From a virus: a stretch of DNA of 5,526 bases. The DNA lies in UHGV virus genome UHGV-0328789. One strand, written 5' to 3'. The translations under genes and the position numbers were made by a program. Below are positions 1 to 5,526 of the stretch, piece after piece (position 1 is the first letter of the stretch; the number at the start of each line of letters is the position of its first letter). The notes under the pieces are model-generated. The model was not told the origin of the DNA. It did not search any database and saw only the letters and a list, made by a program, of their open reading frames with translations.

Positions 1-3
1 AAC

Positions 4-309
4 ATGGACAAGAAATTCAGAAATCAGATGCTGGCTGAAAACCAAAAAAGAGAGGAAGAACTCCAAAATGTAAACCTCGAAATCGAAGAAAGAGAAGTAT
101 CAGAAAGTGGCCCATTCGTACTGATCCACAACAAAAAAAACAAATGGGTAATCACAACATGCGGTGCACTCGTAAACGCGAAGGAGTTCGACACTAAAGA
201 GGATGCTGAAAAACATCTGGCTGAAAAACATTGGGAGGACATCCTAACCGCAGCACTCATATTCTTCTCACATGTGAATGACCAAATGAAAAACACCCAA
301 AAAGAATAA
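4..309 (+). CDS. Hypothetical protein of 101 aa, function unknown. It has an N-terminal charged coiled-coil-like segment and a C-terminal small beta-rich-looking segment (GPFVLIHNKKNKWVITTCGALVNAKEFDTKEDAEKHL).
   Basis: ATG-to-TAA ORF on the same strand as all the other genes. It ends 3 nt before the VP1 ATG (TAAactATG). If the window ends are joined, its ATG sits 1 nt after the TAA of the last gene (TAAcATG), which is the same tight spacing seen elsewhere in this genome. It shares the A-ending and C-ending codon preference of the confident genes. I do not recognise a homologue. Confidence 0.5.
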   Translation: MDKKFRNQMLAENQKREEELQNVNLEIEEREVSESGPFVLIHNKKNKWVITTCGALVNAKEFDTKEDAEKHLAEKHWEDILTAALIFFSHVNDQMKNTQKE

Positions 310-312
310 ACT

Positions 313-2358
313 ATGAAAAAAACATTAGGAGGAGAAAGACTCCGAAGCGAAAGCAAAATGGAAGTATATCTGCCTAATTTCGGTAGATCATCTCACAACA
401 TAGGAAAAATAATCCGAACATCACAAGCGTGCGGAACAATCGTGCCCTATTGGTGTCAAATAGGTTTGGATGGCACAACATTCTACATCGACATCACGAC
501 AAAAGTAAAAACTCTGCCAACAACCGGGCCTGTATTCGGAAGTTTCAAACATCAGATCGATGTATTCGTAATTCCGATCAGACTCTACATAGCAGCATTG
601 CATAATAATGCTCTGGGGGTAGGGCTAAACATGAGCAAGGTGCTGCTGCCGCAATTCCAAGTCTACTCCGCTAACACATCAATCTATCAAAATGATACCA
701 ACAGAGGACAAGTCAATCCAAGCTCACTGATCTCATACTTAGGAATAAAAGGATTCGGATACTCTGAAGTCAATCAATACCTTCGACGATTTCCCGCGAT
801 ATTCAATCTGGCATACTGGGATATATTCAAAAACTACTACGCCAACAAGCAAGAAGAAAACGCATACGTAATCACCGGAACAGACCATATTTGGAAGAAA
901 CTAAGTGCAGGAGATGGAATTGCTTGGAATAGAGTGTGGACAAACAACTTAAGTGAAACATACCCACTCAATCCGACAAGTCAAGCACCTAGCATCATCA
1001 AGCTGGAATTCGAGGAAAAAATATCACCTGAGGAAGTCAATGAAATCCAGTTCTTAACGAATGATCCGGAAAGACCTACACAAAAAGTCAACAAACTAAC
1101 AAAACTCGGAGACACCTTTATATTCGAACGAACAGATCCGGATGCGATAGGAATCAAAAAACCAGACAACCCGAAAAAGGCGACCAATATTTACGTGTAC
1201 CTAGTCAAAAAACCAATCAAAATTGCATACAATGAAGACAAAACAGGGAATATCCATTTAACAATGCCGGACAACCAAAAAATCAAATTAACATCGTTTC
1301 CATTAAAAAACATCGACGATGAACGAACCGCAATCCTAGCAGCACCCAGCACCTCGGCATATATAGTAAGCAATGAAAAAATGCCGTACGGAGCCGCAAC
1401 AAAAACCTTGGATCTGCCAAACTACGACCGCAAGAAAGTATATCACAGCTCAGACGCATGGTATTCACAAGCAGGGTTAGCAGTAAAAACATACCTTAGC
1501 GACAGATTCAACAACTGGCTGAATACCGAATGGATCGACGGAACAACAGGCGGAATCAATGCAATCACAGCTGTAGATGTAAGCGACGGCAGGCTCACTA
1601 TGGACGCCCTGATTCTTCAGAAAAAAATATTCAACATGCTCAACCGCGTAGCCATTACAGACGGCACTTACCAGGCATGGAGAGAAGCGACATATGGAAT
1701 CAGAAGCGCAACACTGCCCGAATCTCCTATCTTCTGCGGCGGAATGCAGAGTGAAATCGCATTTGATGAAATCGTATCAAACTCAGCAACAGACGAGGAA
1801 CCACTGGGAACACTTGCCGGACGAGGAGTTGCAACTATGTACAAGTCCGGAAGGGGATTGAAAATCAAATGCACAGAACCGAGCATGATCATGGCACTGG
1901 GATCGATCACACCTCGAGTTGATTATAGCCAAGGAAACAAATGGTGGACAAGATTGCAAAACATGGATGACTTCCACAAGCCAACATTAGACGCAATTGG
2001 ATTCCAGGAACTAATCACAGAAGAAATGGCCGCGTGGAATACAGAGACCACTGAAAACTATAAACACGTATATCAGTCATTAGGAAAACAACCGTCATGG
2101 ATCGAATACACAACAGACGTAAACGAAACATACGGCGAATTTGCCGCAGGAATGCCGTTAGCATTTATGTGCTTAAACAGAGTATACGAAGAAAACTCAG
2201 ATCACTCAATTGGTAACGCATCAACTTACATTGATCCTACGATATACAACAACATATTCGCAGAGTCAAGACTGAGTTCGCAAAACTTCTGGGTACAGGT
2301 GGCATTCGATGTAACAGCACGCCGAGTAATGTCAGCAAAACAAATTCCAAATTTATAA
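313..2358 (+). CDS. VP1: Major capsid protein VP1 (phiX174 F-like jelly-roll capsid protein), 681 aa.
   Basis: It is the largest ORF. The N-terminal region (...GRSSHNIGKIIRTS...IVPYWCQIGLDGTTFYIDITTKVKTLPT...FKHQIDVFVIPIRLY) follows the pattern conserved in Microviridae F/VP1 N-termini (compare phiX F ...HDLSH...PVIAGDSF...DIFTFYVPHRHVY). The length fits the long Alpavirinae-type VP1. Start ambiguity: the ATG at 313 and the ATG at 358 (MEVYLPNFGRSSH...) are both possible. It ends in TAA. Confidence 0.9.
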   Translation: MKKTLGGERLRSESKMEVYLPNFGRSSHNIGKIIRTSQACGTIVPYWCQIGLDGTTFYIDITTKVKTLPTTGPVFGSFKHQIDVFVIPIRLYIAALHNNALGVGLNMSKVLLPQFQVYSANTSIYQNDTNRGQVNPSSLISYLGIKGFGYSEVNQYLRRFPAIFNLAYWDIFKNYYANKQEENAYVITGTDHIWKKLSAGDGIAWNRVWTNNLSETYPLNPTSQAPSIIKLEFEEKISPEEVNEIQFLTNDPERPTQKVNKLTKLGDTFIFERTDPDAIGIKKPDNPKKATNIYVYLVKKPIKIAYNEDKTGNIHLTMPDNQKIKLTSFPLKNIDDERTAILAAPSTSAYIVSNEKMPYGAATKTLDLPNYDRKKVYHSSDAWYSQAGLAVKTYLSDRFNNWLNTEWIDGTTGGINAITAVDVSDGRLTMDALILQKKIFNMLNRVAITDGTYQAWREATYGIRSATLPESPIFCGGMQSEIAFDEIVSNSATDEEPLGTLAGRGVATMYKSGRGLKIKCTEPSMIMALGSITPRVDYSQGNKWWTRLQNMDDFHKPTLDAIGFQELITEEMAAWNTETTENYKHVYQSLGKQPSWIEYTTDVNETYGEFAAGMPLAFMCLNRVYEENSDHSIGNASTYIDPTIYNNIFAESRLSSQNFWVQVAFDVTARRVMSAKQIPNL

Positions 2359-2362
2359 CACC

Positions 2363-2686
2363 ATGAAAAAAACAATAAGTAGAAGAGGATGTATTAACAA
2401 TCCAAACCTCGCATACCAAGCAGAACCAAGGGAGGAAAAACTAAGGAAAATAATCAGCGGAGAATCCAGCAGCATGGAAGACGGAGTATTCCCAACAATC
2501 TACACAGAAAAAAAAGACGGTGTACTGCCAGAATACGACATCCGCACAGACCGCTTTGAGGTGGCGATAGATGCAATCGACAAAATCAACCAAAGCATGG
2601 CAAACCAAATCGCAAAAAACAAGGGTGAAACTGAAGCCGTAAAAGATTTCGGAACAGAAGTAAAAACCGATTCCGAAAAAAGCTAA
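2363..2686 (+). CDS. Small virion-associated protein of 107 aa, possibly the internal scaffolding (VP3-like) protein. The function is inferred from size and position only.
   Basis: ATG-to-TAA ORF starting 4 nt after the VP1 stop. It is near neutral to slightly acidic, with a DIRTDRFE segment that I think resembles motifs in microvirus scaffold proteins, though I cannot verify this without a search. Its first 12 nt (ATGAAAAAAACA) are identical to the VP1 start. Confidence 0.5.
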   Translation: MKKTISRRGCINNPNLAYQAEPREEKLRKIISGESSSMEDGVFPTIYTEKKDGVLPEYDIRTDRFEVAIDAIDKINQSMANQIAKNKGETEAVKDFGTEVKTDSEKS

Positions 2687-2841: not shown

Positions 2842-4050
2842 ATGAACTTCGAAGATCTACTGAAATTACTCGAAAAAGGAGAAGGTATTGCGAACCCTCT
2901 CGCTGGAGCCATAGGCAGCGCTTCAGGAATCCTCAATATGCTGGGCATAGGCAGGAGGAAACAGATAAGGCAGCAGAAAGAGATGGCAGAAAACGCAGCT
3001 AAAATAAATTACAAATACGGAGAGATGGCAGCGGAGAATGCATTCGAAAGGCAGCAGGTGTTATACAACAGAACCTACCAGGACCAAAGCTATGCCAACC
3101 AAGTCGCACAAATGGATGCAGCGGGATTATCTCCCGGCCTAATGTACGCCAAAGGAGGCGCTGGAGGCGGAGGAGCCGGATCAACAACAGGTGCTCCAAT
3201 GGGTGCAACAGGAGCGACCGGTGCAGGTGCAGCTGCCGATCCCAATGCGCAACTGCAGGCATTGATGTCGCTGCGACAGGTGCGAATGAATGAACGAAAG
3301 AATGAAGCTGAGATAAACCTGCTCAACACTCAAGCAAAAGCACTCGAAGCTGAAGCAGGCAAAAACAGAGAAGAAACCACGTCAATAATCGAAAAAAGAA
3401 TCTGGCAGGTAAAGCAGGAAATGTTCGAAGGCTGGAAGGGCTTTATCGACACGGCAAACCAACTATGGGACCAGATGGTGAAATGGCAGCCTACAGAGAA
3501 AACGACAATCGACGGCAAGGAAATCGAAATACCGAAATACTTTGAGATAGAGGATGACAAATTTGGCAAGATCATATTCGGAGAAGAGTCATTCCAGGGA
3601 GGCATGATGGCAGCTGAAAAACAAATCCTCGAAGGAACCGCGGCAATCAAAACTCTGGAAAGCATATATGCAGACAAAAAACTATCCGCAGAAATCAAAA
3701 AAATAAACGCAGACGCATGCAGTGGAATGGCCCAGGCGGCATATTATTACGCAGCAGGCAAAACCCAGGAAGCAGAAGCAAAAATGCTCGAAGTAAAAAA
3801 GAGAACCGAAGAAGCAACCGCAGATCTGCGGGAACTCCAATACTGGACCGAAATAGCAAACACAATCATCAAACTGGGGCAAGCGGTAGGAAATTTGGTA
3901 ATTGGAGGAAAAACAGGAAAAGTGATCAGAGAATACACAGAAAAAAGGATGAACGAAACTCCCCCCATGAACTCAACAATAGTAACGCAGCACTATGACG
4001 GAGAAATGAAATTTAAGGGAATGGACAAGAGTGCAACAACAAAATGGTAG
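2842..4050 (+). CDS. VP2: Minor capsid / DNA pilot protein VP2 (phiX174 H-like), 402 aa.
   Basis: The architecture is typical of microvirus pilot proteins. There is an N-terminal Gly/Ala-rich hydrophobic segment (GIANPLAGAIGSASGILNMLGIG), an internal Gly/Ala/Thr low-complexity tract, and a long Glu/Lys/Ala-rich coiled-coil-like region (NERKNEAEINLLNTQAKALEAEAGKNREE...). It is the second largest ORF and sits after VP1, as in gokusho-like and alpavirus-like genomes. It ends in a TAG-TAA double stop. Confidence 0.75.
   Translation: MNFEDLLKLLEKGEGIANPLAGAIGSASGILNMLGIGRRKQIRQQKEMAENAAKINYKYGEMAAENAFERQQVLYNRTYQDQSYANQVAQMDAAGLSPGLMYAKGGAGGGGAGSTTGAPMGATGATGAGAAADPNAQLQALMSLRQVRMNERKNEAEINLLNTQAKALEAEAGKNREETTSIIEKRIWQVKQEMFEGWKGFIDTANQLWDQMVKWQPTEKTTIDGKEIEIPKYFEIEDDKFGKIIFGEESFQGGMMAAEKQILEGTAAIKTLESIYADKKLSAEIKKINADACSGMAQAAYYYAAGKTQEAEAKMLEVKKRTEEATADLRELQYWTEIANTIIKLGQAVGNLVIGGKTGKVIREYTEKRMNETPPMNSTIVTQHYDGEMKFKGMDKSATTKW
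3154..3237 (+). repeat. Low-complexity Gly/Ala/Thr-coding tract inside VP2 (GGAGGGGAGSTTGAPMGATGATGAGAAA), with reiterated GGTGC / GGAGG(C) units.
   Basis: Visible directly in the sequence as ggaggcgctggaggcggaggagccgga...ggtgctccaatgggtgcaacaggagcgaccggtgcaggtgcagct. It is locally GC-rich relative to the A-rich genome. The antisense ORF 3090..3329 is just its Pro/Ala-rich mirror image. Confidence 0.6.
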
Positions 4051-4089: not shown

Positions 4090-5361
4090 ATGTGCCTATA
4101 TCCAAGTATCATCGAGAATCCAAAATACGCCAAATCGAACGAAAACAGCAAAGGAGTAAAAGACCGCCGTCTAAGGTGGATACAAATTCCATGCGGACAC
4201 TGCGAAGAATGCAGGCGCGCAAAAGCAAATGAATGGAGAGTAAGATTAATGGAAGAAATAAAATCTAATTCAAAAAACATTATATTTGCAACGCTGACAT
4301 TCTCCGAAGAAAGCCTAAAAAAATTAGAATATGACGAAAAAGAACCAAACAAAGCACCTCAAAAAGCAATCAGCCTATTCAGAAAACGATGGTGGAAAAA
4401 GTACAAAAAACCACTTAAACACTGGCTAATCACAGAACTGGGACATGACAATACCAAAAGAATACATCTGCACGGCCTCATATGGACAGAGCTAACAGAG
4501 GAGCAATTCGAAAAAGAATGGGGGTACGGCTGAATATTCTTCGGTTATAAAGTAAGTGAAAGAACAATAAACTACATCGTAAAATATGTAACAAAGAGAG
4601 ACGAAGCTAATCCTGAGTTCGACGGAAAAATATTCACTTCAAAAAAAATCGGAATAAATTACATAAACAAAAACACACTCAGAAGACACAGATATCAAGA
4701 CAAATTCACAGAAGAAACGTATAAAACAGAATCCGGAATAAAAATCGCATTACCAATATATTACAAACAAAAAATATGGACGGATCAGGAACGCGAAGCC
4801 CTCCGAATTATAAAGGAGGAGAAGCAAACAAAGTACTACAACAAAACTCCTATCAAAGTAGAAACAATAGAACAGTACAGGGAATATGTAAACGCAGTAA
4901 AATACTGGCAATCAATCAAAAAATATGACGGAAAGAGAAAAGAAGGAAATATGCAGAGGGTATGCAGACCTACTCATAAAAAAACAACAACTAACTCACG
5001 AACTATGGAAAACAGAATTTGGAATCAAGAAGTTGGAAGAGATATTAACACGAAACAAAATAATGATGCCAACAGAGGAGGAAGAGCCATCGGAGACAGA
5101 AGTAACAATCTTGTGAAACTAATCGGCGCCGAAAGAGTATCTCAACGAAACTTCAAATACGAAGGAACATACTACATAACAGAAGATGGAGAAATATACA
5201 GTAAAGAATACGTAGAAACTCAAAAAACACAAAGAACCGGCGTCAGCTTCTACGAAATAGCTGACTGGTTATACAACGAGAGCAAGCAAATGTACGAACC
5301 TACTATCAGAAGAATAGTAATAATCAAAATCACAAACACTCAATTATCACTAAACCTATGA
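4090..5361 (+). CDS. VP4: Rolling-circle replication initiation protein VP4 (phiX174 gene A superfamily I Rep). The frame is open for 423 codons and is interrupted by one in-frame TGA at codon 148.
   Basis: It has a CGHCEEC Cys/His cluster (4192-4212). Motif I FATLTF is at 4285-4302, motif II HLHGLIW (HuH) is at 4465-4485, and motif III YIVKYVTK with paired catalytic Tyr is at 4573-4596 (phiX A has YVAKYVNK). Motifs I and II lie before the TGA at 4531-4533 and motif III lies after it, in the same frame. There is no ATG in that frame between 4534 and 4950. The gene ends with TGA at 5359-5361, overlapping the ATG of the next ORF (ATGA). Confidence 0.85.
4531..4533 (+). other. In-frame TGA inside Rep (context GGC TGA ATA; protein ...EKEWGYG*IFFGYKVSERTINYIVKYVTK...).
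   Basis: Read directly from the sequence. Frame 1 is continuous from 4090 to 5361 apart from this codon. The other five genes terminate with TAA or TAG only. Confidence 0.9.
4925..5116 (+). CDS. Candidate overprinted ORF of 63 aa in the +1 frame relative to the Rep 3' region (MTEREKKEICRGYADLLIKKQQLTHELWKTEFGIKKLEEILTRNKIMMPTEEEEPSETEVTIL).
   Basis: It has an ATG start, and the frame is open from 4901. It uses A-ending codons like the bona fide genes and has very few T-ending codons. Over the same nucleotides the Rep frame translates to a low-complexity N/R/T/K-rich stretch. This is weak evidence, because any frame of an A-rich sequence gives K/E/R-rich peptides. Confidence 0.2.
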   Translation: MTEREKKEICRGYADLLIKKQQLTHELWKTEFGIKKLEEILTRNKIMMPTEEEEPSETEVTIL

Positions 5362-5526
5362 ATGAAAAAGTAAAGAAAATCGTAAAATGGATCGCGGTAA
5401 TAGCAGCTGCGATCGGCGCAGCAGCCGCTGTAATCATTGAGCAGGGATGCACTAACAAGTATCATCTCAAAGCAAATGGCATCAAAGTCGACACAATCGA
5501 AGTATCAAAATCAATAAAAATTAAAT
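5358..5526 (+). CDS. Small membrane protein, partial at the window end (MNEKVKKIVKWIAVIAAAIGAAAAVIIEQGCTNKYHLKANGIKVDTIEVSKSIKIK...). It is 56 aa if the window is circular, because T5526 plus A1 A2 form TAA.
   Basis: Its ATG overlaps the Rep TGA (ATGA), suggesting translational coupling. It has a basic N-terminus followed by one Ala/Ile-rich predicted transmembrane helix of about 18 aa. The helix is encoded by a locally GC-rich segment that is clearly non-random against the A-rich background. It is the only coding option for this otherwise unassigned 170 nt of a compact genome. Confidence 0.5.
   Translation, partial: MNEKVKKIVKWIAVIAAAIGAAAAVIIEQGCTNKYHLKANGIKVDTIEVSKSIKIK

What the first reader, a model, noticed from the sequence alone, without database searches (positions are those of the whole stretch)
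5358..5526. Small single-pass membrane protein coupled to the Rep stop: candidate single-gene lysis (amurin/E-like) or membrane-targeting factor in a lineage with no identified lysis gene
phiX-like microviruses lyse with a small N-terminal-TM protein (E) that blocks MraY. For gokusho-like and alpavirus-like microviruses the lysis mechanism is essentially unassigned. This ORF has a basic N-terminus, one Ala-rich TM helix and a short polar tail. That is the minimal architecture of protein-antibiotic lysis proteins. It is not overprinted on another gene.
Basis: inference. Interest (0 to 1): 0.55.

Follow-up and report, generated by a model that had tools for sequence, protein, structure and literature searches.

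The report
Small exported membrane peptide of microvirus
This gut microvirus carries a real, tightly conserved 56-codon gene for a tiny membrane-anchored, lipoprotein-like peptide, its only membrane-targeted product, which makes it the best (untested) candidate for how such phages break out of or re-model their host's envelope.

Summary
The ORF is real. It starts at 5358 and runs across the circular junction; its TAA stop is bases 5526, 1 and 2. It encodes 56 aa: a basic N-terminus, one Ala/Gly-rich helix, an invariant Glu-Gln-Gly-Cys and a 25-residue cationic tail.

It is intact and exactly 56 codons in 36 of 37 IMG/VR relatives; the exception is split by contig ends. dN/dS is 0.09, against 1.7-3.7 in four of five control frames. 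It holds the only strongly hydrophobic stretch on the coding strand.

It is not E-like: no homology, it is not overprinted, the helix has no Pro, and the predicted orientation is opposite (N-in).

Fifteen of 18 more distant relatives carry one analogous small ORF (hydrophobic segment, Cys, 31-40-aa polar tail) between Rep and capsid genes. Twelve of 15 sequences tested match a lipoprotein lipobox pattern. The window family misses it only at position -3 (Glu).

So this is a shortened member of an undescribed family of small lipoprotein-like envelope peptides.

Function is inferred only. Candidates are a lysis effector built like colicin-release lipoproteins (about 0.4) or a superinfection-exclusion lipoprotein like T5 Llp (about 0.3).

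The literature searched reports no microvirus lipoprotein, and lysis outside phiX174-like phages remains unassigned.

The parts
5358..5526 (+). ORF56: codons 1-56 plus the first base of the stop codon
   Evidence: It is 56 codons in 36 relatives, with conserved start and stop, and dN/dS 0.09.
1..2 (+). Last two bases of the ORF56 TAA stop across the circular junction. The next gene's ATG follows at 4-6 (TAAcATG).
   Evidence: Relatives show the same AAATAACATG junction inside their contigs.
5358..5361 (+). ATGA overlap. The ORF56 start overlaps the TGA stop of the upstream frame (ORF118, which in this genome is fused in frame to Rep).
5358..5387 (+). Basic N-terminal region, residues 1-10 (MNEKVKKIVK, net +3).
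   Evidence: dN/dS is 0.013.
5388..5438 (+). Hydrophobic Ala/Gly-rich helix, residues 11-27 (WIAVIAAAIGAAAAVII). It is a signal-peptide h-region or a membrane anchor.
   Evidence: There are many synonymous Ala-codon changes and almost no amino-acid change (one substitution each at residues 14 and 15, with I/M/L variation at residue 27). dN/dS is 0.047.
5439..5450 (+). Glu28-Gln29-Gly30-Cys31, a lipobox-like motif. Glu28, Gly30 and Cys31 are invariant; Gln29 is nearly so.
   Evidence: dN/dS is 0.005 over residues 28-32. It fails the lipobox pattern only at position -3.
5451..5525 (+). Polar cationic tail, residues 32-56, predicted to be periplasmic.
   Evidence: dN/dS is 0.19 over residues 33-56.
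5487..5504 (+). Tail strand motif V44-D-T-I-E-V49. Asp45 is invariant, and K-x-D-[ST] is shared with the analogous ORFs of distant relatives. It resembles a TonB box; this is an untested lead.

Best explanation
ORF56 is a bona fide gene for a small exported, membrane-anchored envelope effector.

Proposed pathway (steps 1-3 are inferred from the anatomy; none is shown):
1. The basic N-terminus and the 17-residue Ala/Gly-rich hydrophobic helix insert it into the cytoplasmic membrane, N-in, through the Sec pathway.
2. The invariant Gly30-Cys31 just outside the helix is then either lipid-modified and cleaved like a bacterial lipoprotein, leaving a 26-residue lipopeptide, or it stays as the membrane-proximal end of an uncleaved signal anchor.
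3. In both cases the 25-residue cationic, strand-prone tail sits in the periplasm, tethered to a membrane.

It is the shortened member of a family of one-per-genome small lipoprotein-like ORFs found in the Rep-to-capsid accessory block of this clade of gut microviruses.

Inferred function, not shown: it is the phage's single-gene release (lysis) effector. It would act on the envelope from the periplasmic or membrane side. In build it is closer to the small colicin-release lipoproteins than to phiX174 E. Translational coupling to the upstream ORF would keep its dose low.
For: Real gene:
- It is 56 codons with conserved ATG, ATGA overlap and stop in 36 of 37 IMG/VR relatives.
- 108 of the 120 listed protein clusters are exactly 56 aa.
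- The identical protein sits on at least 24 contigs.
- dN/dS is 0.09 overall, 0.013 for the N-terminus, 0.047 for the helix, 0.005 for EQGCT and 0.19 for the tail. Four of five control frames give 1.7-3.7; the fifth, the wobble-matched antisense frame, gives 0.14.

Export and anchor:
- N-terminal charge is +3, the Kyte-Doolittle maximum is 2.33, and the AF2 helix spans residues 3-28.

Only membrane protein, with no alternative lysis gene:
- It holds the only hydrophobic window on the + strand in any frame.
- No ORF gives a Pfam, PHROG or NCBIfam muralytic hit.
- None of 65 loci of the clade has an M15 peptidase homologue, whereas the cultured Bacteroides microvirus phiHBP1 has one.

Family:
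- 15 of 18 more distant relatives (capsid protein 35-61% identical) have one ORF of 64-104 codons as listed (about 64-73 from the nearest Met). Each has a basic N-terminus, a hydrophobic segment, a Cys and a 31-40-aa polar tail, and lies between Rep and the capsid gene.
- 12 of 15 tested sequences fit the core lipobox pattern.
- Profile-profile comparison with the window family gives 88% probability, P 2.8e-6, with the Cys aligned.
- A K-x-D-[ST] tail motif is shared.

Context:
- Lysis is unassigned in non-phiX microviruses.
- Colicin lysis proteins show that a small lipoprotein alone can cause release and lysis.
- Two relatives without the Cys-type ORF carry another small hydrophobic ORF in the same block (L053, L055). 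This fits lineage-specific turnover of lysis genes.
Against: - No functional evidence of any kind was obtainable.
- None of the characterised single-gene lysis proteins seen in the papers read is a lipoprotein (one search found no mention). Small phage lipoproteins with known roles are superinfection-exclusion proteins or spanins.
- The nearest outgroup genome, L038, has no hydrophobic ORF at all on its coding strand. This is odd for an essential function.
- The window family's lipobox is non-canonical, with an invariant Glu at -3, so processing is uncertain.
- Homology to the canonical-lipobox family rests on one profile-profile match, driven partly by the hydrophobic segment.
- Colicin-type quasi-lysis is not known to release 25-30 nm particles through the sacculus (own knowledge).
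- The host is unknown, so the envelope type is assumed, not shown.
Confidence: 0.42

Rival explanations
1. Superinfection-exclusion or receptor-masking lipoprotein, working like T5 Llp or the Cor proteins. The lipid-anchored tail would bind the periplasmic face of the phage's outer-membrane receptor, or its energising partner such as TonB. This would block further infection and stop progeny being wasted on cell debris.
For: - The lipoprotein-type build is the hallmark of known phage exclusion proteins, which jam TonB-dependent transporters from the periplasm.
- In the wider family the tail, not the hydrophobic segment, is the conserved part.
- The gene is absent in L038 and replaced in L053 and L055. 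That patchiness is typical of accessory genes.
- The most conserved tail element, D-[ST]-hydrophobic-x-hydrophobic, resembles a TonB box.
Against: - There is no sequence relation to Llp or Cor.
- The mature peptide would be only 26-40 residues with a single Cys, too small for the folded, disulphide-braced roughly 60-residue Llp type.
- In the window family the helix is more constrained than the tail, which is unexpected for a disposable signal peptide.
- This reading leaves the phage with no lysis candidate at all.
Confidence: 0.3
2. One reading: an E-like 'protein antibiotic'. The transmembrane helix itself would dock onto a membrane enzyme of the lipid II pathway (MraY, MurJ or similar) and block cell-wall synthesis. 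The Cys and the tail would be secondary.
For: - In the window family the helix is nearly invariant (dN/dS 0.047 with dS 0.45). It has an all-small Ala/Gly face suited to tight helix packing.
- Known membrane single-gene lysis proteins act through their transmembrane domains.
- The window family's lipobox is non-canonical, so the helix may remain attached.
Against: - There is no homology to E.
- The predicted orientation is opposite to E, and the helix has no Pro (E topology from own knowledge).
- In the wider family the hydrophobic segment varies freely while the Cys and tail are conserved. That is the reverse of what a helix-mediated inhibitor predicts.
Confidence: 0.12
3. Holin or pinholin-like membrane depolariser without a cognate endolysin, or another envelope role such as assembly, egress or an entry aid.
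For: - It is a small single-helix protein with a small-residue zipper and a charged tail.
- One analogue gives a weak sub-threshold similarity to a holin model (E 0.02, 15 bits against a cut-off of 39.7).
Against: - No endolysin, peptidase or spanin partner exists in the genome.
- There is no dual-start motif.
- The holin hit is far below threshold.
Confidence: 0.1
4. Not a protein-level feature. The GC-rich stretch would be conserved as a DNA or RNA structure (origin or hairpin), and the ORF would be incidental.
For: There is a local GC peak (0.45-0.49 against about 0.35) and short palindromes at 5400-5425.
Against: - The fold energy is no better than shuffles (z -0.48).
- Third codon positions in exactly this stretch vary freely while the amino acids do not.
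- dN/dS is 0.09 in this frame against above 1.6 in four of five control frames and 0.14 in the wobble-matched antisense frame.
Confidence: 0.01

Closest known systems
Colicin lysis / bacteriocin release proteins (small lipoproteins of colicin plasmids)
   Same: Both are tiny precursors (about 45-56 aa) made of a signal peptide, a Cys and a mature peptide of about 26-35 residues. Both are encoded on a very small replicon with no wall-degrading enzyme. For the colicin proteins this build is enough to cause release and death of the producer.
   Different: There is no sequence similarity (no Pfam hit). The window family has Glu at lipobox position -3. The target in colicin systems is outer-membrane phospholipase A in enterobacteria, and nothing is known here. 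Release of whole virions has not been shown for that mechanism.
Phage superinfection-exclusion lipoproteins (T5 Llp, Cor of T1/phi80)
   Same: Both are small phage-encoded proteins with a lipoprotein-type N-terminus, and both act or would act from the periplasmic side of the envelope.
   Different: There is no homology. Mature Llp is a folded 61-residue domain with a disulphide, whereas this tail is 25 residues with one Cys and no confident fold. No such gene has been reported in Microviridae in the papers searched.
phiX174 lysis protein E (and other membrane single-gene lysis proteins such as LysM/SglM, SglPP7)
   Same: Both are very small single-helix membrane proteins of a small phage that lacks an endolysin, and both occur one per genome.
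   Different: E is overprinted in gene D. It is N-out/C-in, depends on a conserved Pro in its helix, and has a basic cytoplasmic C-terminus (own knowledge). ORF56 is stand-alone, predicted N-in/C-out, Pro-free and followed by an invariant Gly-Cys. It has no sequence similarity to E.
Small lipoprotein-like ORFs of related gut microviruses (for example in MG945452.1, PQ006915.1, PQ006995.1, OM869549.1, PP511403.1; all annotated 'hypothetical')
   Same: They occupy the same genomic block (Rep to capsid), occur one per genome, and have the same build. The Cys is aligned and the K-x-D-[ST] tail motif is shared. The profile match is 88%.
   Different: They are 64-84 aa with longer tails (31-40 residues) and mostly canonical lipoboxes ([TSQ][SG]C). 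One subgroup has a strongly conserved YNTxTGDSIVIRYEQxG tail. The window family is shorter, has EQGC, and its helix is the most constrained part.

Membership tests
phiX174 E-type amurin | Sequence homology to protein E (Pfam Microvirus lysis protein family) | tested here: not met
   No Pfam or PHROG family matches at E <= 0.1. An exhaustive HMM search finds only its own family.
phiX174 E-type amurin | Gene overprinted inside the scaffolding gene in another frame | tested here: not met
   It is a stand-alone ORF that overlaps its neighbour by 4 nt only.
phiX174 E-type amurin | N-terminal transmembrane helix, N-out/C-in, with an essential Pro | tested here: not met
   A helix is present, but it has no Pro. 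The N-terminus is +3, which predicts N-in. The topology is predicted from charge only.
phiX174 E-type amurin | Inhibits MraY and depends on SlyD | not testable with these tools
   This needs genetics or biochemistry.
Bacterial lipoprotein (signal peptidase II substrate) | Positively charged n-region and an uncharged hydrophobic h-region | tested here: met
   K4, K6, K7 and K10 are present, and residues 11-27 are uncharged.
Bacterial lipoprotein (signal peptidase II substrate) | Lipobox: {DERK}(6)-[LIVMFWSTAG](2)-[LIVMFYSTAGCQ]-[AGS]-C, with Cys at position 15-35 (PROSITE-type rule, recalled from memory) | tested here: inconclusive
Twelve of 15 analogous ORFs from distant relatives pass the core pattern.
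Bacterial lipoprotein (signal peptidase II substrate) | Actual diacylglyceryl modification and cleavage before Cys | not testable with these tools
   This needs globomycin sensitivity, lipid labelling or mass spectrometry. No SignalP or LipoP was available.
Colicin lysis protein / bacteriocin release protein | Sequence homology to the colicin lysis protein family | tested here: not met
   There is no Pfam or NCBIfam hit.
Colicin lysis protein / bacteriocin release protein | Small lipoprotein precursor with a mature peptide of about 30 residues | tested here: inconclusive
   The size fits (56-aa precursor, 26 residues from Cys31). Lipoprotein status is unresolved.
Colicin lysis protein / bacteriocin release protein | Causes quasi-lysis through outer-membrane phospholipase A | not testable with these tools
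   Experimental.
Superinfection-exclusion lipoproteins (Llp/Cor) | Homology to Llp or Cor, and a folded mature domain of about 60 residues | tested here: not met
   No family hits. The tail is 25 residues with one Cys, and AF2 pLDDT is below 50.
Superinfection-exclusion lipoproteins (Llp/Cor) | Blocks the phage's own receptor | not testable with these tools
   Host and receptor are unknown.
Holin / pinholin | Partner endolysin gene in the same genome | tested here: not met
   No ORF has a muralytic domain. There is no M15 homologue in 65 loci of the clade.
o-spanin (Rz1 type) | Pro-rich mature lipoprotein with an i-spanin partner gene | tested here: not met
   The tail has no Pro, and the genome has no second membrane protein.

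The most novel reading that the evidence does not exclude
The family is a new class of periplasm-acting phage 'protein antibiotic' or decoy. A 26-40-residue lipid-anchored peptide would use its conserved strand (V-D-T-I-E-V here, G-D-S-I-V-I-R-Y in relatives) to mimic a TonB box or another edge strand. By beta-augmentation it would dock onto an essential or receptor-linked envelope machine such as the TonB C-terminal domain, a SusC-type transporter plug or BamA. That would give gut microviruses either a lipoprotein-type single-gene lysis system or a minimal superinfection-exclusion device.
Probability: 0.13. Interest if true: 0.85.

Novelty: new variant of a known kind. Interest (0 to 1): 0.6.

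Why it matters
How microviruses other than the phiX174 group leave their hosts is an open question. The papers read say these phages lack a cell-wall-synthesis inhibitor and that only some have acquired peptidases.

This work narrows that question, for a widespread lineage of human and animal gut microviruses, to one 56-codon gene and a wider family of analogous small ORFs. All are annotated 'hypothetical' or not annotated at all.

If the peptide is lytic, it would be the first lipoprotein-type single-gene lysis protein. It would also be a new route to a periplasmic or outer-envelope target in gut anaerobes.

If it is an exclusion factor, it would be the first in Microviridae and the smallest known.

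Either way the experiment is cheap: a 168-nt insert, three point mutants and a 5.5-kb synthesizable genome.

Tried and rejected
1. Stop-codon recoding. The in-frame TGA in Rep at 4531-4533 suggested genetic code 4 or 25. This is rejected. Every relative checked (37 IMG/VR loci; six exact-match contigs) reads TGG there. TGA also alternates with TAA and TAG as the ORF56 stop in relatives.

2. A DNA or RNA structure in the GC-rich stretch. Rejected: z is -0.48, and synonymous sites vary freely.

3. Remote homologues. An HMM of 35 family members was searched against 1.84 billion representative proteins. It returned only the family itself, fragments or fusions of it, and one 769-aa Cys-rich repeat protein (P0132) matching the tail five times. 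I regard that match as chance.

4. The apparent frame disruption in L036. The ORF is split by the ends of a contig with no terminal repeat, so it is an artefact.

5. Host assignment through prophages. The single genome-contig scan found only a free 5673-nt scaffold in an Acinetobacter lwoffii assembly. This is probably contamination and is uninformative.

6. Structure prediction. It gave only the helix, with nothing usable for fold search.

7. A comparative test of mutual exclusivity with M15 peptidases. The five peptidase-bearing microviruses I fetched have T-rich coding strands and capsids not detectably related to this clade. Hydropathy scanning there is swamped by false positives, so the test was uninformative.

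8. Profile comparison with only eight analogues was weak (33%). It rose to 88% with 13. I treat the homology as probable, not proven.

9. NCBIfam, Pfam and PHROGs gave nothing for ORF56 or its small neighbours.
Full report
**What the window is.** The 5526 bases are a complete circular microvirus genome with all genes on the + strand. The genes are:
- ORF101 (4..309).
- Major capsid protein (313..2358; Pfam Phage_F, PHROG 514).
- ORF107 (2363..2686).
- DNA pilot protein (2842..4050; several PHROG 'pilot protein' families).
- Rep (from 4090; Pfam REP_ORF2-G2P, PHROG 942).
- A block of small ORFs up to the junction.

The nearest annotated genomes are faecal microviruses from rodents, lemurs, civet and birds. 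They share only about 64-70% nucleotide identity over parts of the capsid gene and 35-56% capsid protein identity. No cultured relative or host is known. The one hit in bacterial assemblies is a free 5673-nt scaffold in an Acinetobacter lwoffii assembly, probably a contaminant.

**The observation.** The ORF starts at ATG 5358-5360 and is open to the end of the window. On circularisation it closes with TAA (base 5526 plus bases 1-2), giving 56 aa.

The join is not an assumption. In 36 IMG/VR relatives the same ORF lies inside the contig. It is again 56 codons and ends ...AAA TAA CATG, running straight into the ORF101 homologue.

The protein has three parts:
- A basic N-terminus, MNEKVKKIVK, net charge +3.
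- An uninterrupted 17-residue hydrophobic stretch, WIAVIAAAIGAAAAVII.
- EQGC followed by a 25-residue polar, cationic tail.

AlphaFold2 on the family alignment gives one helix over residues 3-28 (pLDDT about 86) and no confident structure for the tail.

The coding strand is A-rich, so hydrophobic stretches are rare on it. This is the only 19-residue window with Kyte-Doolittle hydropathy >=1.6 in any of the three + strand frames of the whole genome. The phage therefore encodes exactly one strongly membrane-targeted product, and no E-like overprinted membrane ORF is hidden elsewhere.

**It is a real gene.**
- A word-indexed search found 187 homologues. Among the 120 listed, identity is 75-97% and 108 are exactly 56 aa, on contigs up to about 5.5 kb long. 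The identical protein occurs on at least 24 contigs.
- Across 37 genomes the third codon positions vary freely. Ala codons in the helix use GCA, GCG, GCT and GCC, while the amino acids hardly change.
- Nei-Gojobori dN/dS is 0.09 overall. By region it is 0.013 (N-terminus), 0.047 (helix), 0.005 (EQGCT) and 0.19 (tail).
- Read in the other frames, the same nucleotides give 1.7-3.7. The exception is the antisense frame whose wobble positions coincide, which gives 0.14.
- The start, the ATGA overlap and the stop position are conserved. The stop is TAA in 33 genomes, TGA in 3 and TAG in 1.
- The one apparently disrupted copy (L036) is split by contig ends.
- A DNA-level explanation for the GC-rich stretch is excluded. 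Folding is no better than shuffles (z -0.48), and the synonymous sites are not conserved.

**The gene upstream.**
- In this genome and in its two closest relatives (L061 and L063, 93-95% nucleotide identity), the Rep frame has no stop between the Rep core and TGA 5359-5361.
- In all other relatives examined, one or two stops end Rep near the equivalent of 4945-5000. A separate 118-119-codon ORF (window 5005..5361, '...YEGTYYITEDGE...') is what overlaps ORF56.
- A 63-codon coiled-coil ORF (4925..5116) is overprinted on that junction in another frame. There it is better conserved than the Rep frame.
- The window's Rep frame also contains TGA at 4531-4533, where every relative has TGG (Trp in EKEWGYGW). 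Since TGA also serves as the ORF56 stop in three relatives, this is a nonsense change or a sequencing error, not recoding.

**What it belongs to.** No curated library knows the protein (Pfam, PHROGs, NCBIfam). A profile search of 1.84 billion representative proteins returns only its own family. The context was more informative.

I examined 18 more distant genomes (capsid protein 35-61% identical):
- Fifteen carry, between Rep and the capsid gene, one small + strand ORF of the same build. It has a charged N-terminus, a hydrophobic segment, a Cys and a 31-40-residue polar tail. The ORFs as listed run 64-104 codons, or about 64-73 from the nearest Met.
- Two carry a different small hydrophobic ORF in the same block. 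L053 has a 39-aa helix with an acidic N-terminus and a basic C-terminus. L055 has a 31-aa amphipathic peptide.
- One (L038) has none.

In the Cys-type ORFs the residues before the Cys read FTSC, TTSC, LSSC, IQSC, VQSC, AVGC and so on. Twelve of 15 sequences tested fit the core of the PROSITE-type lipoprotein lipobox rule, which I recalled from memory.

In that wider set the hydrophobic segment varies freely, while the Cys and the tail are conserved. One subgroup has a conserved H-x-V-x-Q-S-x-Y-N-x-x-T-G-D-S-I-V-I-R-Y-E-Q-x-G. That is the signature of a cleavable lipoprotein signal peptide in front of a functional mature peptide.

A profile-profile comparison of the window family with 13 of these ORFs gives 88% probability (P 2.8e-6), with the Cys in register. 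With only eight sequences it was 33%. A direct alignment shows the shared K-x-D-[ST] strand near the C-terminus and a deletion of about 13 residues in the window family.

I conclude, as probable but not proven, that ORF56 is a shortened member of this family.

The window family has two peculiarities:
- Its lipobox fails the rule at one position, an invariant Glu at -3, so 0 of 120 members pass.
- Its helix is more constrained than its tail.

Whether it is still lipid-modified and cleaved at Cys31, or has become an uncleaved N-in signal anchor, cannot be settled here.

**How it most likely works.**

Shown:
- It is a translated-looking, strongly constrained gene.
- It has a Sec-type hydrophobic N-terminal segment and an invariant Gly-Cys just after it.
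- Its tail has a conserved D-T strand motif.
- It is tightly packed, with a 4-nt start/stop overlap upstream and a 1-nt gap downstream.

Inferred:
- The N-in insertion.
- The periplasmic location of the tail.
- Possible lipidation.

For function I commit to a release (lysis) effector at about 0.42. The reasons are:
- Every lytic microvirus needs such a function.
- This genome has no muralytic enzyme and no other membrane protein. By contrast, the only cultured Bacteroides microvirus, phiHBP1, carries an M15 peptidase.
- One small hydrophobic ORF per genome recurs in the same block, even where its type changes.
- Small lipoproteins on colicin plasmids show that such a peptide alone can cause release and death.

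The main rival, at about 0.30, is a superinfection-exclusion lipoprotein of the Llp/Cor kind, which jams a TonB-dependent receptor from the periplasm. This is favoured by the lipoprotein build, by the conserved tail, and by the patchy distribution, including the absence from L038.

The helix is remarkably invariant here. However, the wider family conserves the tail rather than the helix, and the orientation, the lack of Pro and the lack of overprinting all differ from E.

**A lead, not a result.** The best-conserved tail element is V-D-T-I-E-V here and G-D-S-I-V-I-R-Y in relatives. It resembles the TonB-box pentapeptide. The SusC-type transporter Bt1763 has VDEVVV, and all TonB-dependent transporters carry such a box. 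The E. coli consensus D-T-I-x-V is from memory. A tethered strand mimic that docks by beta-augmentation would fit either exclusion or a new kind of periplasmic 'protein antibiotic'. I could not test it.

**Known or new.** Full-text searches combining microvirus or Microviridae with lipoprotein, signal peptide, lysis, Bacteroides and Alpavirinae returned no paper describing such a gene. The phiHBP1 paper does not discuss lysis genes. Reviews and primary papers state that non-phiX microviruses lack an identified lysis protein apart from occasional peptidases.

The homologues in GenBank records are 'hypothetical protein' or unannotated.

I rate it a new variant of a known kind. Small phage- or plasmid-encoded exported lipoprotein-type envelope effectors are known. 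One in Microviridae, of this size and with this motif, is not.

**Limits.** There was no dedicated signal-peptide or topology predictor, no host, and no expression or functional data. The wider-family survey covers 18 genomes, three of them closely related to each other. The family link rests on architecture, position and one profile match.

Noticed in passing
window 4531-4533: There is an in-frame TGA inside Rep, upstream of the catalytic YxxK(Y) region. Every relative checked reads TGG (Trp) here. This genome's Rep is therefore truncated at codon 148 unless the TGA is read through, or the base is a sequencing error. It is not stop-codon recoding, because TGA serves as the ORF56 stop in three relatives.
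   Followed up: yes
window 4940-5010 (Rep frame): The window and its two closest relatives (L061, L063) lack the one or two stop codons that end Rep in all other relatives. Rep is therefore fused in frame to the downstream 118-codon ORF, giving 423 codons. Both arrangements evidently exist in nature.
   Followed up: partly
window 4925-5116 (+): A 63-codon coiled-coil ORF (MTEREKKEICRGYADLL...) is overprinted on the Rep/ORF118 junction in another frame. It is better conserved there than the Rep frame, and recognisable homologues exist in distant relatives (L039, L041-L043). Its function is unknown.
   Followed up: partly
window 5005-5361 (+): This ORF118 ('...FKYEGTYYITEDGEIY...') has only its C-terminal roughly 80 residues conserved. 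Short homologues of about 66 aa that start just before the Y-x-[DE]-[DE]-D-G motif occur in distant relatives. Its true start in this lineage is unclear: a conserved ATG at 5005, or GTG at 5113 in this genome only.
   Followed up: partly
window 4-309 (+): ORF101 is conserved across the whole clade and sits directly upstream of the capsid gene. It ends in a moderately hydrophobic or amphipathic stretch (HWEDILTAALIFF); the homologue in L047 reaches hydropathy 1.77. It has no family assignment.
   Followed up: no
L053 (MT135417.1, reverse strand) 2429-2548: A relative without the Cys-type ORF has, right after Rep, a 39-aa single-helix ORF with an acidic N-terminus and a basic C-terminus. That is the orientation typical of E and LysM, so it may be an independent small membrane effector in the same block.
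   Followed up: no
L038 (PQ006946.1), whole genome: The nearest outgroup (capsid 56% identical) has no hydrophobic ORF on its coding strand at all, and no peptidase. How it leaves its host is unexplained under any model.
   Followed up: partly
L052 (NZ_JACWEU010000076.1): A complete genome of this virus lineage (capsid 88% identical, ORF56 intact) is deposited as a stand-alone 5673-nt scaffold in an Acinetobacter lwoffii isolate assembly. It is probably contamination, but it is the only 'host' association found.
   Followed up: no
P0132 (769-aa protein from the representative library): A Cys- and Pro-rich repeat protein with a signal peptide matches the ORF56 tail five times (LKVNGVCVDTIQVS against LKANGIKVDTIEVS; E 1.5e-11 summed). 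This is probably a chance resemblance of a beta-strand motif amplified by the repeats.
   Followed up: no
L065 (Bacteroides phage phiHBP1, PV598014.1) 84-488, reverse strand: The only cultured Bacteroides microvirus encodes a Peptidase_M15_3 protein (E 4e-17) that is annotated 'hypothetical'. About 165 microvirus records in the phage collection carry a homologue. The five fetched have T-rich coding strands and capsids unrelated to this clade.
   Followed up: partly
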